Positions 18,001 through 39,000 of a DNA stretch of 64,000 nucleotides are shown piece after piece. The position numbers were made by a program. Source of the DNA: Mytilus californianus (Eukaryota); the NCBI RefSeq assembly GCF_021869535.1, contig NW_026262690.1, positions 79,112,001 through 79,176,000 on the forward strand, written 5' to 3'. How positions within the stretch are numbered: position 1 is the first letter of the stretch; every line of letters begins with the position of its first letter.

Positions 18001-21000
18001 CACTATTACAGGAGCTGTATTAGGAGTTATATGTCTGGTAGCCGCCGTATGTGGCACTGTTTACCATATAAGGAAGAAAAGACGTTCATCCTCATATCTA
18101 AAAATTTAGAGTTAATAGGTGGATAAATTATTATGAAAAAAAACTTTTTTGTTATTAATAAACTGGTCCATATCTGTGATACTAAATGTTGAAGTCGATT
18201 CTGCATTATTACTTGATTGAAAGAAATTCCAAGTATAATTTTATTCGAAATATTTTTGTTTTGTCTAGATCAAGAACTGTAAAGGATTCATTAATTAACT
18301 TTTCATTTTCAATAACCGGTATATGCTTTATACATTTTTAGATTAAGGATGAACAATTAATTAAAGTTGACCTTGACCTACAAGTAAGTCTGATATCGGA
18401 GTAAAACCGAGTAGCAAAGTCTTTGACTACATTAGGCTAGAAAAACATAGATTTATTATTGATATATATATGGCTTACTATATGAAATATCATATAATGA
18501 AGTTTACATACATATATAGTTATTGATAACTATCGTGAAATGTTGAAAGCATCGCACCAAAATGAGATTAAACATTGTAAATTGTTATATTCAATATTTA
18601 CAATTGTTATGAATTTATATAAGTATTTTCAAAATAAATTGAATAACATAATTAGAAATGTCTCATTTGATATTGAATAATTCTGCACAACATGCGTTCA
18701 CGCAGGTTTTTGACTTTGGATTTTCTCAATCTGTAGTTTTCTATACTGTGTTTTGTGCATTGTTTTTGTCTGTTCGTCTTACTCCTATAGTGTTGTCTGT
18801 TGTTTTCTTTCGTCTTAGAAATTTGGTTGTCCTCTACAAATCTCTCTCCTTGATATTTTTTTCTAAATGTCTACTTTCTCCTCTGGCCATAATATTATCC
18901 TAATCTCACTTATGTTTTTCATTGATTGCTTGCTATCTTTATTGAAAAAATTATGGTTTATATTGCTATTAAATACTGCGAAACTATATTATATATGAGG
19001 GTATCACCAGCCCAGTAGTAATTCTGTGTTGACATGAAGTATTATTGATAAGGTCATAATTATAGATAAACTGTTAATAAAATTTTGAATATTTCGAAAT
19101 ACTAAGAATTTCTACCCCAGGAATAGATTACCTTAGCTGTATTTGGCAAATCCTTTTGGAATTTTGAGTCCACAATGCTCTTCAACTTTGTACTTTTATT
19201 TCCATTTTTTAACTTCTGTGATTCGAGCGTTGCTGATGAGTCTTTCGTAGACGAAACGCGCGTCTGGTGTACTAAATTTTAATCATGGTATCTATGATGA
19301 GTTCATTTTCTGTACATTTCGAAAATGTCTCCCTTGTCTAGGTAAAAACATCCAGTTTGACCACATCAGTATACACTCATTGTACCATGTTTTTTGTTGG
19401 AATTAGGATGACGCGTTAAAAATTACATAAGGTTGAAATACATACAGCATACTTGTTTTTTTGAAAGGTTTTTAAATGACGTCTATAAAAAGGCCATTTG
19501 CCTTATCCTATTCAGTTGATGATAATACACATTAAATACTATCTTACACCTGTTATAATATAGACACGTCCAGAAATAAAAAAAAATAATACTCAATAAT
19601 ACAGTTCAAACTTAATACATGTCAAATATTAACAACAAAAGAATGATATTATACACATTTTCCACGTTATGTTCCACCTTCCACAGTTAAATATCTCTAA
19701 GCTCTGAGTGTACATTTTTGCTTAAACTAGTCAATTCTGTCATAAAAAATCCCATTAATTTGCACAAGGCTACCATTATATGAAAACATAATTAATGATG
19801 TTATGGTGACAAAATTCGTTTTTTGAAATTAAAAATCAATTTTTAGTTTGACAAACAGGTAATTAAAATGATTCAATTTTACATTGCTTGTAGTGTATAA
19901 TTTATATATACTATGTAAAAGGCAAGTAAATGTGCTTTTTTTTATTTATTATTTGACAAATAATACAATAGGATCATTATATTAAAGGAGCTTTACCATG
20001 AACTGTTTAGATTGCTTATCTAAGATACCAAGATCTTAGAGTACTAATAATTAAAAACCGCTAAAATATACCTCTTGAAAAGAAAACAATATACTTTTTT
20101 TCCTAACATTACTCATCCAATTTATACCGAGTCAACTAGACACAATATCGTTTGGTATGAAAATAAGCACAAACTATTTGATGGATACGTGAATATATAT
20201 ATATATTTATATTTCTATAATACTCAAAATTCTTATTATGCACCAACGGAAGCGTTACGTTCTTGCTTATAACATCTAAATCATGCCGAAAGTTATTTTT
20301 TTCTAAGCATTGATTTTGCTCAAAATCTATTTTAAGCATTCATATAGCTCACAACTTATTCTTAGCATTCAATTTGCTCACAATCTAGGGATTTCTCTTT
20401 TTGTTGACCACAGTTTTTAATGACGCCGTTATATTCACTTTCATTATCAACCATAAAGTCTATTTTATGAAAAAGATAGAACTTTAGAATGTCAATCAAA
20501 ACCAGAATAAAAAATGTCGCTGATGATATCATGATAAATGAGTCAATATAAATAGATGTAGCACGAAAAGATCCGGATGCAATAAATAAAAAAAAAGCCG
20601 GTCTAACGCACCAAATTATAAAGAGGGCGCGGGCCATTGTATGGTTGAAAAGTGAAATGTTGAAACGACAGATGGAACATGTTTCTTTTGAAGGAGAATT
20701 CTTCAGTTCTGAAAAAGAAAACAAGATATAAATGAGGGTATGTTTAGGTACTTTATGAATGTTCTACAAAACTGTAAAGGATTCATAAATTTTGTAATTC
20801 ACATAATTATAAGCCTGATGAACTAGATTTTTTTTCAAAATCATACTTATACCTTTTACACAAGGATAAACTAGCTCACAATTTTGAGGTTCCGTTGAAG
20901 TTTTTAAATTTCTTTCTACTTAAAATAGTGCAATTGATTGATGTTTGCTTTACGCTCAGTAGCCAAGTAGCCAATATTTGATACATTTTCATAACGTGAT

Positions 21001-36000: not shown

Positions 36001-39000
36001 CTGAGGCTTAAGGTGCTAATGATATTTTTTTTTATTCATTTCGAAAACATACTGAAAGATAAGTTTTTTCTTAGTAGTCATTTTGCTCACATTTTATGGA
36101 TTTCTCTTTAGGTAAGCCACAGTTTTCGATTACATCGTTATATTCGCTTTCATTATCAACCGTAAATTCTACTTTTCGAAAAAGATAAAACCTGAGAATG
36201 TTCATCAAAACCAGAATAAAACATGACATTGATGATATCATGATAAATAAGTCAATATAAATAGACGCAACACGGAAAGAAGATCCAAATGCAATAAATA
36301 AGAAATAAGTCGGTCTGACGCACCAAATCATGAGGAGGGCCAGCGCCAATATATGGTTGTAAAGTACGATGTTGATACGACAGATAGGACATGTTTCCTT
36401 TGAAGGAGGATACCACAATTCTGAAATAGAAAATACAAGATATCAAATAGAGTATGATTAGATACATGAAATAGTATATGATTTTGCTATCAGACTGAGA
36501 TAAAGTGCTTTTGCTTTGTTATTCCATTAAATAAAAATTAGAGTATTTAGTTTCTCTAAAAAGGTGCCATTTTTACGATTATTTTCAGATTTTTGGCTTT
36601 CATATTTCACTACGATTAAACAAATTGTCTGATTATTATTTTTTAACGTCCAGTAGCCAATATTTCAATATATTTGAGACGAACTTAAGAAAGAGCTAGA
36701 TAGGTAAATAGTAATTTTTTTAAAAGTATGATAAATTAATTGGTTATAGCTTTAATTCTTTTACTCCGCAATTGATTTAAAAGATTTTTGCAAAGCAACA
36801 TCATACTAGTACCTCATCAATATTGAAAAATAACCCGGAAAGTATTTTCGTCTAATGATTTCTCAATCATGGCAATGATGAGGTTTGAAATACAAATAAA
36901 TTGAAATTAAATCAGTCCATTTTCTTTACTAGATAATTTTAGGAAGTACCCTTTTTCTTCCTTATTGTCATATTTCATAAAAGCTAAGAAACTAACCACG
37001 ACTTCAACCTATTTTTGCACCCTAAAAAGTTTTGCTCTAGAGGTTATGTACAAGTAAAGGTCGTATAAACTTCAACGATTACTTACCAGATAATGAGGAC
37101 GTTTTGTATAGTTTGTCGTACAGTACTGCTAAAGTAGGAATACTTAATAGCAAATATTCCAGAAAGTAACCACTCGTCCAAGGATCCAATTTTTCATAAC
37201 AGTAAAAAGCTGTGTTTAGTCGTGAGTCATCAAAAGCATAGAAGGAATATTTGTCCGTTATCAAGCATGTTCCCAACAAATTGTTCCATACTGTGATTAA
37301 TGTCAGCGATAATAAACTATAGATGAAACAAGCGACTGTTAATGAAGATTGTTTAAATGGGAGGGATGTCAAAATTATTGTGCCGAGTAGTTCAGAACAA
37401 ATCATCGAAACTGCAGGCATACGTTTTACGGGAAGAAAATACAAGGACAAATGTGTTGAATTCCAGTAATATTTCACGAAATATAAAACACGGAGTAATT
37501 CAAATGCATATTCAACTATAATAATGCTGATAAAAATTACTGAATATTTGTGTTGTGCGGACAAACATAGCGGCACAAGCGCGAGAAAAACAATCAAAGT
37601 CAAAATGATTATACAAATTTCTGGCACTAACGATAGATCCATATTCTTTTTATATCATTTCACTTCCAACTTTAAAATCTAAACACCCTGTAAAAGATCA
37701 ATGAAAATAAAATCTTTTTGTATTGCAGCCCAAAAAGGAAGTGTAATTGTACTCTTTAAAAATCGTTACGTGTTGTTTCTAGTTTTAAAGTTAATTTATG
37801 ATGAGTTAATTTAACGTATTATTGTTGAATTTTTCGACATGATTATTGTATAATCGAAATTCATAATTGTTTTACACTTATCACTACATATATTTAGTAA
37901 CAAAACACACTTGAATTTTACGAGAATGGTCTATATATGTTTCATGTGTATATATTTCTCAAGAAAACTGCGAACGTTAATTGTGTAGAATTTATACAAA
38001 ACCCAATACGGTATCTTTAGAACACGTTATGTTATGTACTATCTCTAACTGGCTCCCATAAGCTTACCTGTTTCCGTCGTATGGAATCAAGTGCACACCT
38101 TTTTCTGCCAAAGGGAAATTCTGATTAAAATTAACTTCCTGTTTAACATTTACTGAAGCGTTTCTTGAGGTAATCTTATGTTTATAAATCGCCATTCGAT
38201 ATAAATGATTGCATACTGAAGTCCTTTACTTTCTATTGTTATAAACCTAGCTTTAACATGATGTCAGAATATACCTTTTTACGATAATATGAATGCATAC
38301 TAAAAAGCTGTTAGGGGTTGTGAAATGTATAATTTCTTACAAAAGTTTTGACTTTTTTCTCTGGAAACCATATCACTTTGCTGCCCGCAGAAGTTAATAA
38401 GCGTGAAGCATATAATTGTGAAAAACAAGTATTCGTCTGAGGATTTATCTGTACCTGAAATGTGGTAGCGTATTTTGGGTCCGGCATAGTCTTACTTTCC
38501 TTATTGTAGCTAGCTTTCTGTTTATGAAAACGTAGGCAACTCTCTACATTCTGCTTTTGATTTTCATTTGATGAAGTTTAAAAAAAACAACAGAAAATGT
38601 AACAGTATTTCATGAGAAATGTTTAAAACGTTGACTGATTAATTTGACAAAAATACAGATTCGTGCAATATGCAATATCTGTACTTTTTTGTTCCATCTA
38701 AAGTGCTATTGGTCATGCGTTTTTTTGTGATTTATCAAACAAAACAATGCATTTCACATACTTTGATTACTCCAATGTTCAATAGAATGTATGGAAAGGT
38801 ACTAATGACTTCAATACACAGTTAAACACGATGGGTGCCTCATGTGGAACAGGATCTGCTTACCCTTCTAGAGCCTCTTATGTTGTTTTTGTAGACTGTC
38901 TTTTGGTCGTGTTTCTTTTTTTTGCCATGGCGTTATCAGTGTGTTATCGCCTTTTGATTTTGAATACCCCTTTGATATCTTCCACCTCTCTTTTAATATG

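What the first reader, a model, noticed from the sequence alone, without database searches (positions are those of the whole stretch)
20362..37642. Two paralogs of an unrecognised 7-TM protein family
Seen: two open, identically spliced genes encode seven hydrophobic segments with almost no N-terminal domain. Conserved features include an N-glycosylation sequon after TM2 (YWNRT/YWNST), a Cys at the start of TM3, a Trp in TM4, a Cys in the TM4-5 loop (LNTAFYC), Pro and Tyr in TM5, WCVRP in TM6, and a CxxC (CSIC/CPIC) in the TM5-6 loop. DRY and NPxxY are absent. Inference: N-out GPCR-like topology, perhaps a lineage-specific chemoreceptor or lipid receptor. I cannot assign it to a named family.
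Basis: partly seen in the sequence, partly recalled or inferred. Interest (0 to 1): 0.68.

Follow-up and report, generated by a model that had tools for sequence, protein, structure and literature searches.

The report
Two orphan seven-helix membrane protein genes
Two neighbouring two-exon genes encode related membrane proteins with seven predicted membrane-spanning helices that match no named protein family in the libraries available, so they are real genes of unknown family, and a receptor role is only a guess.

Summary
On the minus strand, gene A (22276..20362) and gene B (37642..36071) each have two exons split by a phase-1 GT-AG intron at the same codon. By arithmetic they encode 330 and 301 aa.

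The genes are real. Their exon-1 frames are the two longest in the window. Exons are 78-82% identical, while the intron and 3' flank are at shuffled-control level. dN/dS is 0.36 (p 2.6e-9).

Hydropathy gives 5+2 hydrophobic segments, though TM5 is marginal in B. Low-confidence AlphaFold2 models place five long helices at the same exon-1 positions.

Searched exon by exon, nothing named matches: Pfam, NCBIfam, PDB sequences, ESM Atlas and bacterial/archaeal genomes. None of four classic rhodopsin-family motifs is present, even relaxed.

The fold could not be resolved: pLDDT is about 46, and Foldseek found nothing at E <= 0.001. N-out topology has only weak charge-bias support.

So "unassigned 7-TM family" is supported. 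"GPCR-like chemoreceptor or lipid receptor" is untested.

The parts
21631..22276 (-). Gene A exon 1 (coding part): ATG 22276..22274 to the phase-1 donor. It gives 215 whole codons plus the first base of a Glu codon and holds predicted helices 1-5.
   Evidence: sequence and frame; hydropathy; AlphaFold2 helices 6-28, 32-61, 76-93, 98-128, 185-210; low confidence.
20709..21630 (-). Gene A intron, 922 nt, GT..AG, phase 1.
   Evidence: Its identity to B's intron is 329/645 aligned = 0.51 against 0.47 for a shuffled control.
20362..20708 (-). Gene A exon 2: last two bases of the Glu codon, 114 codons and the TAA stop (20364..20362). It holds the CSIC loop, helices 6-7 and the tail.
37087..37642 (-). 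Gene B exon 1 (coding part): ATG 37642..37640 to the phase-1 donor. It gives 185 whole codons plus one base and holds predicted helices 1-5.
   Evidence: AlphaFold2 helices 6-28, 32-61, 75-93, 98-128, 154-182; low confidence.
36421..37086 (-). Gene B intron, 666 nt, GT..AG, phase 1, at the same codon as in A.
36071..36420 (-). Gene B exon 2: 115 codons and the TAA stop (36073..36071). It holds the CPIC loop, helices 6-7 and the tail. AATAAA lies 35 nt after the stop (36036..36031).
21797..21886 (-). Thirty extra codons in gene A, absent from B, in the loop between segments 4 and 5. They carry two extra Cys.
   Evidence: no other copy in the window.
22277..23540 (-). Conserved non-coding upstream block of gene A. 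It includes a conserved acceptor-like TTTTACAG| (AG at 22359..22358), which suggests a 5'UTR intron.
   Evidence: 944/1151 = 0.82 identical to B's block; indels not in threes; no RNA family.
37643..38830 (-). Conserved non-coding upstream block of gene B, with the matching acceptor-like site (AG at 37689..37688).

Best explanation
Shown: two tandem paralogues, 15.4 kb apart on the same strand, are intact two-exon protein-coding genes under purifying selection. Each encodes a small (about 300-330 aa) helical membrane protein with seven hydrophobic segments and almost no N-terminal domain. The proteins match no named family in the libraries that could be searched.

Inferred:
- The seven segments form one bundle, with the N-terminus outside and the tail in the cytoplasm.
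- Conserved charged residues lie inside segments 2 (E44, E48, R51), 5 (E), 6 (R in WCVRP) and 7 (D in YID). They point to a polar core rather than a plain anchor.
- A conserved sequon (N61) and Cys residues sit on the predicted outer face.
- The loop between segments 5 and 6 (YDKLYKTSS, SKETCxICR) and the tail (VDNESEYN, with Y-N-G/D-V) are conserved on the predicted inner face.

My best guess at the mechanism is a lineage-restricted receptor-like 7-TM protein. It would sense something at its more variable outer loops. It would act through its conserved cytoplasmic loop and tail, by coupling to a partner or by regulated trafficking. The confidence given is for this whole statement. For the shown part alone (real genes for a polytopic helical membrane protein) I would say about 0.9.
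For: Gene reality:
- The longest frames of the window.
- Identical phase-1 splice position with consensus sites.
- Exons 0.78 and 0.82 identical, against intron 0.51 (control 0.47) and 3' flank 0.43 (control 0.45).
- dN/dS 0.36, p 2.6e-9. In the unconverted 3' part of exon 1, pS is 0.69 and pN 0.20. That gives a ratio of about 0.12 by my Jukes-Cantor arithmetic, which is rough because pS is saturated.

Helical membrane protein:
- 5+2 Kyte-Doolittle segments.
- Both AlphaFold2 models put five long helices at the same exon-1 positions.
- Substitutions in the seven segments have a summed helical moment at 100 degrees of 2.91, against 2.14 +/- 0.41 in permutations. 3.6% of 5000 permutations reach it.

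Topology:
- The N-terminal flank is acidic (D2, E8), with H31/K32 after segment 1.
- K+R is 12/11 inside against 10/7 outside.
- The sequon after segment 2 is conserved.

Receptor-like pattern: amino-acid identity is 33/59 outside, against 113/163 in the membrane and 53/77 inside. There is also a 30-residue indel in the outer loop.

Orphan status.

Native gene: GC3 is 0.32-0.38, like the neighbouring lipase exons (0.30) and the window (0.317).
Against: - No GPCR-clan or other Pfam profile matched any exon at E <= 10.
- 0 of 4 rhodopsin motifs (LAxxD, [DE]R[YH], [FY]xxxWxP, [ND]PxxY) are present, even relaxed.
- The predicted loop between segments 3 and 4 is only about 3 residues long. From my own knowledge, that loop carries coupling determinants in class A receptors.
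- The charge bias is weak, and segment 5 is marginal in B (1.32). A six-segment topology is therefore not excluded.
- dN/dS is the same outside (0.39), in the membrane (0.35) and inside (0.34). The lower outer identity goes with a higher pS and is not a sign of ligand-driven diversification.
- Only two copies lie in 64 kb.
- The tertiary fold is unresolved: pLDDT 45.6 and 45.8, pTM 0.30 and 0.25, and Foldseek gave 0 hits at E <= 0.001 out of 16 and 13 rows with E <= 10.
- No expression data could be consulted.
Confidence: 0.4

Rival explanations
1. The proteins are polytopic membrane proteins with a non-receptor job, such as a transporter or channel subunit, a membrane enzyme or an organelle or trafficking factor. 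The seven segments and buried charges would then serve permeation or catalysis rather than ligand sensing.
For: - Conserved charged residues sit inside four segments.
- There are no GPCR motifs or profile hits.
- The loop between segments 3 and 4 is very short.
- Constraint is uniform across compartments.
- Only two copies are present.
- The tail carries an acidic stretch and Y-N-G/D-V, which from my own knowledge fits a tyrosine-based sorting signal.
Against: - No transporter, channel or enzyme family matched either.
- There is no internal repeat of the kind seen in 3+1+3 carriers.
- No catalytic-looking motif was recognised.
Confidence: 0.35
2. The proteins are extremely diverged members of an already named GPCR family, rhodopsin-like or another family of the Pfam GPCR clan. 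They would be invisible here only because the search was done on exon pieces with two-sequence profiles.
For: - Splitting at the intron and having only two sequences both lower sensitivity.
- The flatworm PROF1 family shows that BLAST-invisible rhodopsin-like families exist (PMC3261222, passages).
- The positions of Cys82, Trp119, the loop Cys, the Pro in segment 5 and the W/P in segment 6 loosely recall class A landmarks (the resemblance is recalled).
Against: - 0 of 4 motif remnants are present, whereas PROF1 keeps several.
- There is no Arg at the end of segment 3, unlike the Aplysia candidates (PMC2700072, passages).
- Cys82 lies about 8 residues inside segment 3, and that segment is only about 21 residues long.
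- Only 2 of 29 weak Foldseek rows are GPCRs, at E 4.5 and 9.0, from low-confidence models.
Confidence: 0.12
3. The topology differs from 7-TM. Either the first segment is a cleaved signal peptide, or the marginal fifth segment does not span the membrane. That would give six spans and move the tail or the large loop to the other side.
For: - Segment 5 scores only 1.61 (A) and 1.32 (B) and contains Glu and Pro.
- The charge bias is weak.
Against: - Segment 1 has a 19-residue hydrophobic core and an acidic N-flank with no positive residue. From my own knowledge, this fits a signal anchor better than a cleaved signal.
- AlphaFold2 draws segment 5 as a long helix in both models (low confidence).
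- Segment 5 is well conserved, 14/20.
Confidence: 0.15
4. The two loci are not functional genes. They would be chance open frames or decaying duplicates in AT-rich DNA, whose T-rich codons mimic hydrophobic segments.
For: - Random frames of this window also show 2-3 hydrophobic peaks per 90-146 aa.
- No transcript evidence was available.
- The language-model recognition scores were low (1588 and 1605).
Against: - Both copies keep both exons open, along with the start, stop and splice sites.
- Exons are conserved while the intron and 3' flank are randomised.
- dN/dS is 0.36 with p 2.6e-9.
- Frame lengths exceed or equal the maximum of 100 simulations.
Confidence: 0.03

Closest known systems
Rhodopsin-like (class A) G-protein-coupled receptors
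   Same: About 300-330 aa, seven hydrophobic segments and a very short N-terminus. There is a sequon and conserved Cys on the predicted outer face, a Trp in segment 4, a Pro in segment 5, and W and P in segment 6.
   Different: No 7tm_1 or other GPCR-clan profile hit. No LAxxD, [DE]R[YH], [FY]xxxWxP or [ND]PxxY. W and P are four apart, not two. The loop between segments 3 and 4 is about 3 residues. The fold is not established.
PROF1, the flatworm-specific rhodopsin-like orphan family (PMC3261222; passages read)
   Same: A lineage-restricted 7-TM family with a predicted outer N-terminus that ordinary similarity searches do not connect to known receptors.
   Different: PROF1 keeps remnants of the rhodopsin motifs and its genes are intronless. 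The genes here keep none of the four motifs and have a conserved phase-1 intron. Membership is not supported.
Aplysia candidate chemoreceptors AcCRa-c (PMC2700072; passages read)
   Same: Short N-terminus, 7-TM, conserved Cys and sequons, genes clustered in the genome. One subfamily has a single conserved intron.
   Different: AcCRs are classed as rhodopsin-type by InterPro. They keep the Arg of the DRY position (ERC motif) at the end of the third helix. The proteins here have FKKS/FKQS there and no profile hit.
Recently named 7-TM families outside earlier classifications (RSF, Hi-GOLD, GPRch1-3; PMC12716839, passages read)
   Same: They show that 7-TM-only families outside all earlier GPCR classifications are still being found, with structure searches as one aid. 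This is the situation the present genes would be in if they are receptors.
   Different: Those families were defined from many sequences and usable predicted structures. Here there are two sequences and no usable model.

Membership tests
Rhodopsin-like (class A) GPCR | Significant match to the 7tm_1 profile or any profile of the Pfam GPCR clan | tested here: not met
   four exon peptides against all 24736 Pfam-A models at E <= 10. The only row is CGLD27-like at E 0.28 (noise). Exon-by-exon search lowers sensitivity.
Rhodopsin-like (class A) GPCR | [D/E]R[Y/H] at the cytoplasmic end of helix 3 | tested here: not met
   no [DE]R[YH], nor [DE]R followed by any residue, in either paralogue. The segment ends SFKKS / PFKQS.
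Rhodopsin-like (class A) GPCR | [N/D]PxxY in helix 7, [F/Y]xxxWxP in helix 6 and LAxxD in helix 2 (motif list as in Table 3 of PMC3261222) | tested here: not met
   none found in the right segment, even in relaxed form. Segment 6 has W-C-V-R-P instead.
Rhodopsin-like (class A) GPCR | Disulfide between a Cys at the outer end of helix 3 and a Cys in the second outer loop | tested here: inconclusive
   Cys82 and the Cys of RLNTAFYC are conserved in both copies. However, Cys82 lies about 8 residues inside the segment, and the bond cannot be tested here.
Rhodopsin-like (class A) GPCR | Seven membrane helices with the N-terminus outside | tested here: inconclusive
   5+2 hydropathy segments, with the fifth marginal. 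Five long helices appear in both exon-1 models. K+R is 12/11 inside against 10/7 outside.
Rhodopsin-like (class A) GPCR | GPCR fold of the helix bundle | tested here: inconclusive
   AlphaFold2 on exon 1 only: pLDDT 45.6 and 45.8. Foldseek against PDB gave 0 hits at E <= 0.001. The full-length spliced protein was not folded.
Rhodopsin-like (class A) GPCR | Coupling to heterotrimeric G proteins | not testable with these tools
   Needs a cell-based assay.
PROF1-type lineage-specific rhodopsin-like family | Remnants of rhodopsin motifs at the corresponding positions; intronless genes | tested here: not met
   0 of 4 motifs. One conserved phase-1 intron. Family features are from PMC3261222 passages.
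Aplysia AcCR candidate chemoreceptors | Rhodopsin-type by InterPro, with a conserved Arg (ERC) at the end of helix 3 | tested here: not met
   Family features are from PMC2700072 passages.
Insect-type seven-helix ion channels (gustatory or odorant receptor-like; Pfam 7tm_6, 7tm_7, Trehalose_recp) | Profile match, and N-terminus inside the cell | tested here: not met
   No Pfam hit. The charge bias weakly favours N-out. The family names and topology are recalled.
Other named seven-helix families covered by Pfam (for example PAQR/HlyIII, Lung_7-TM_R, GPR137-like, Frizzled, Dicty_CAR, PQ-loop, MtN3; list recalled) | Profile match. For the 3+1+3 carriers, also an internal repeat. | tested here: not met
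   (all of Pfam-A). (exon 1 against exon 2: best E 0.77, no repeat).

The most novel reading that the evidence does not exclude
These two genes are members of a previously undescribed, Pfam-invisible receptor family with a GPCR-type fold, restricted to this animal lineage. Such a chemosensory or lipid-sensing class would have been missed by surveys that screen with the 7tm_1, 7tm_2 and 7tm_3 profiles.
Probability: 0.2. Interest if true: 0.6.

Novelty: new variant of a known kind. Interest (0 to 1): 0.35.

Why it matters
Surveys of receptors in bivalves screen proteins by the Pfam 7tm_1/2/3 profiles (PMC11682238, passages), and such a screen would miss a family like this one. If the proteins turn out to be receptors, they would add a class to the sensory or signalling repertoire of the lineage. 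They would also be another case of seven-helix families lying outside current classifications (PMC12716839, passages). If they are not receptors, they are two of the many uncharacterised multi-pass membrane proteins of invertebrate genomes, and of modest interest. The locus also shows exon-limited conservation next to a probable gene-conversion tract in a young tandem pair.

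Tried and rejected
All searches of the spliced models were made exon by exon. The joined proteins were never assembled, searched or folded. The lengths 330 and 301 aa are arithmetic.

**Searches that found nothing**
- Pfam, 4 exon peptides, E <= 10: only noise.
- NCBIfam: only noise, far below cut-offs.
- PDB sequences, single peptides and 2-row profiles: one noise row each at E about 0.3, or none.
- ESM Atlas with B exon 1 and A exon 2: "no usable hit".
- Bacterial and archaeal genomes: 43 and 106 pattern matches, 0 confirmed.
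- Internal repeat, exon 1 against exon 2: none.
- A third copy or a pseudogene: tblastn, 2-row HMMs against 2143 frames and blastn of the locus found only the two copies.

**Structure attempts**
- Complex prediction, with the two exon products of B as separate chains: "no answer" (ipSAE 0.00 and 0.00, mark 0.34). This is neither for nor against.
- AlphaFold2 on exon 1 of B and of A with 2-row alignments: pLDDT 45.6 and 45.8. Only the secondary structure is usable.
- Foldseek against PDB with both models: 16 and 13 rows at E <= 10, none at E <= 0.001, a mixed bag of channels, transporters and two GPCRs. This is meaningless at such confidence.

**Other checks**
- Rfam on the two conserved upstream blocks: nothing, apart from one E 0.41 row.
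- Text search of the paper library for five short motifs: 3 papers, all an unrelated acronym.
- Four topic searches turned up no description of such a family.

**Considered and rejected**
I read the 30 extra codons of gene A as a possible unspliced mini-intron: GTGAGT at 21858 to CAG at 21754, 105 nt, in frame (read). I rejected this because it would delete the conserved RLNTA and it lacks a pyrimidine tract.

**Unchecked**
Family size, taxonomic spread and prior annotation are therefore unknown.
- Supplementary alignments of PMC2700072 and PMC3261222 were not visible.

Full report
**What is there**

On the minus strand lie two genes of the same build.
- Gene A: ATG at 22276..22274, exon 1 to 21631, a 922-nt GT-AG intron (21630..20709), and exon 2 from 20708 to the TAA at 20364..20362.
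- Gene B: ATG at 37642..37640, exon 1 to 37087, a 666-nt intron (37086..36421), and exon 2 from 36420 to the TAA at 36073..36071.

In both genes the donor follows the first base of a Glu codon (G|AA) directly after ...KTSS(F/L)S. The sites fit the consensus: CAG|GTTAGT and CTG|GTAAGT as donors, and TTTTTCAG|AA and TATTTCAG|AA as acceptors. Searches show exon 2 open from the acceptor to the stop. An in-frame TGA lies just upstream of each ATG, so the proteins start with MDLSLVPE and have no hidden N-terminal domain.

By arithmetic the products are 330 aa (A) and 301 aa (B). Every search, alignment and fold below was done exon by exon, so nothing here rests on a full-length sequence.

**Is it more than chance?**

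Yes.
- The exon-1 frames (232 and 191 aa stop to stop) are the two longest of the 64-kb window. In 100 simulated windows of the same dinucleotide make-up, the longest frame averaged 128 aa and never exceeded 194.
- Exon-1 peptides are 122/215 identical, counting a 30-residue gap. Exon-2 peptides are 76/109 identical.
- At the DNA level the exons are 0.78 and 0.82 identical. The intron (0.51; shuffled control 0.47) and the 3' flank (0.43; control 0.45) are no better than random.
- Nei-Gojobori counts give dN/dS 0.33 (exon 1) and 0.45 (exon 2), or 0.36 for the summed counts, Fisher p 2.6e-9.
- Only these two copies exist in the window (tblastn; profile search of 2143 frames).

**Membrane architecture**

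Kyte-Doolittle windows of 19 residues give five segments in exon 1 and two in exon 2 in both paralogues. Four points qualify this.
- The fifth segment is marginal (1.61 in A, 1.32 in B).
- Unrelated frames of this AT-rich window also show two or three such peaks per 90-146 residues. The hydrophobic pattern counts only because the frames are demonstrably coding.
- The two AlphaFold2 models of exon 1 (2-row alignments) are of low confidence: pLDDT 45.6 and 45.8, pTM 0.30 and 0.25. Both draw long helices at 6-28, 32-61, 75/76-93 and 98-128, and at the fifth segment (154-182 in B, 185-210 in A).
- Substitutions between the paralogues within the seven segments show helical periodicity. The summed moment at 100 degrees is 2.91, against 2.14 +/- 0.41 in permutations, and 3.6% of 5000 permutations reach it. 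Only one segment is individually below 0.05.

For topology, the acidic N-flank followed by H/K after segment 1, and K+R counts of 12/11 on the predicted inside against 10/7 outside, favour N-out. The bias is weak. The conserved sequon after segment 2 fits this, but its use is unknown.

**What family?**

None that I could name.
- Pfam-A (24736 models) returned nothing but one noise row for the four exon peptides at E <= 10.
- NCBIfam returned only noise.
- PDB sequences returned nothing real, with single peptides or 2-row profiles.
- The ESM Atlas gave no usable hit for B exon 1 or A exon 2.
- Two scans of bacterial and archaeal genomes confirmed 0 of 43 and 0 of 106 pattern matches.
- There is no internal repeat.
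- Of the four classic rhodopsin-family motifs, as tabulated in PMC3261222 (passages), none occurs in either paralogue, even in relaxed form. Segment 6 reads W-C-V-R-P, not C-W-x-P. Segment 3 ends in FKKS/FKQS, without the Arg that even the divergent Aplysia candidates keep (PMC2700072, passages).
- The loop between segments 3 and 4 is about three residues.
- Foldseek with the two low-confidence models found no match at E <= 0.001. The 16 and 13 rows at E <= 10 are a mixed bag, with two GPCRs at E 4.5 and 9.0. This says nothing either way.
- A complex prediction with the two exon products as separate chains gave no verdict.

**How it most likely works**

Shown: these are intact, constrained genes for a small polytopic helical membrane protein.

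Inferred: the segments form a seven-helix bundle, N-out and C-in, with a polar core. Conserved buried charges are E44, E48 and R51 in segment 2, E in segment 5, R in segment 6 and D in segment 7. The predicted outer face is glycosylated and Cys-bearing. On the predicted inner face, the loop between segments 5 and 6 and an acidic tail with Y-N-G/D-V are conserved.

The predicted outer loops are the least conserved parts (33/59 identical, against 113/163 and 53/77) and carry a 30-residue indel. That pattern is why I rank a receptor-like role first.

The case is thin. dN/dS is the same in all three compartments (0.39, 0.35, 0.34). There are only two copies. No coupling motif is recognisable. A non-receptor membrane function is nearly as likely.

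**Comparison with what is known, and novelty**

The genes work, at most, like a lineage-specific seven-helix receptor. They fail every sequence test of membership in the rhodopsin-like family, in PROF1 and in the Aplysia candidates.

Seven-helix families outside current classifications are still being named (PMC12716839, passages). Bivalve surveys that screen by Pfam 7tm profiles would not see such a family (PMC11682238, passages).

Whether this family is really undescribed cannot be said. The planarian GPCR paper PMC4862687 was seen only as a search listing. The taxon of the window could not be tested either. Nothing suggested human sequence.

**Locus history and surroundings**

The duplicated unit runs from the stop codon to about 4.9 kb (A) or 3.6 kb (B) upstream.

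The 1.2 kb just upstream of each ATG is 0.82 identical, with indels not in threes. It is better conserved than synonymous sites overall. Along exon 1, pS rises from 0.21 to 0.40 to 0.69. I read this as a gene-conversion tract over the promoter side and the 5' coding part, or as regulatory constraint. No RNA family explains it.

The pair sits between two plus-strand paralogous GDSL-lipase (phospholipase-B-like) genes.

**Verdict**

The claim of an unassigned 7-TM family is supported within the libraries searched. The GPCR-like receptor reading is unproven. Interest is moderate to low until homologues, expression and a usable fold are in hand.

Noticed in passing
window 3808-18106 (+) and 48927-60942 (+): Two colinear, paralogous multi-exon genes flank the 7-TM pair. 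At least 13 matching exon-like pieces carry GDSL-lipase blocks (..GDSITVS....FIGGNDLCD....DCFH.S..). Each gene appears to end in an exon with one membrane span and a basic tail. Colinear exons of both genes give sub-threshold Lipase_GDSL hits (E 3.4e-4, 2.6e-3, 0.07, 0.14). From memory they resemble phospholipase B1.
   Followed up: partly
window 22277-23540 and 37643-38830: The 1.2 kb upstream of both 7-TM genes is 944/1151 = 0.82 identical and non-coding (indels not in threes). It is better conserved than synonymous sites. pS along exon 1 rises from 0.21 to 0.40 to 0.69. This suggests a gene-conversion tract or strong regulatory constraint. There is no Rfam match.
   Followed up: partly
window 22320-22328 and 37650-37658 (-); acceptor-like AG at 22359-22358 and 37689-37688: A conserved two-codon upstream open frame (ATG ATA TAA) and a conserved TTTTACAG| acceptor-like site lie just before each start codon. 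They suggest a 5'UTR intron and perhaps translational control.
   Followed up: no
window 20301-20387: A 29-nt unit repeated three times (75% matches) spans the stop codon and last codons of gene A. The C-terminal ..CEQIEC coding stretch is echoed twice in the 3'UTR.
   Followed up: no
window 18382-20220 and 26426-28922: The 3' flank of gene A has a colinear copy 8 kb away (74-81% identical, with an insertion), but no gene copy follows it.
   Followed up: partly
window 21797-21886 (-): Thirty extra codons in gene A's loop between segments 4 and 5 (HPDQ...NDES), with two extra Cys, absent from gene B. No other copy lies in the window. Whether this is an insertion in A or a deletion in B is unresolved.
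   Followed up: partly
window 27098-27397 and 35260-35559; also 33059-33154; 5806, 28142, 45981, 60071; 12075, 13401, 24727, 38925: Dispersed repeat families look like transposable-element or SINE/MITE fragments: a 300-nt pair at 91% identity, and 67-90-nt families with 3-4 copies. No reverse transcriptase or transposase domain appeared among 146 frames of 57 aa or more scanned at E <= 0.01.
   Followed up: no
window 12111-12425, 5172-5653, 1534-2273, 39111-39218: Tandem arrays: a 31-nt unit (8 overlapping 70-nt copies), a 20/42-nt spaced array, a ~147/295-nt unit, and a 29-nt unit repeated 3.2 times upstream of gene B.
   Followed up: no
window 34227-34676 (+): The third-longest open frame of the window (150 aa..YLDL..KIYDKRDDFNF..) has no Pfam match. 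It lies among repeats between the two 7-TM genes and may be a remnant of a mobile element.
   Followed up: no
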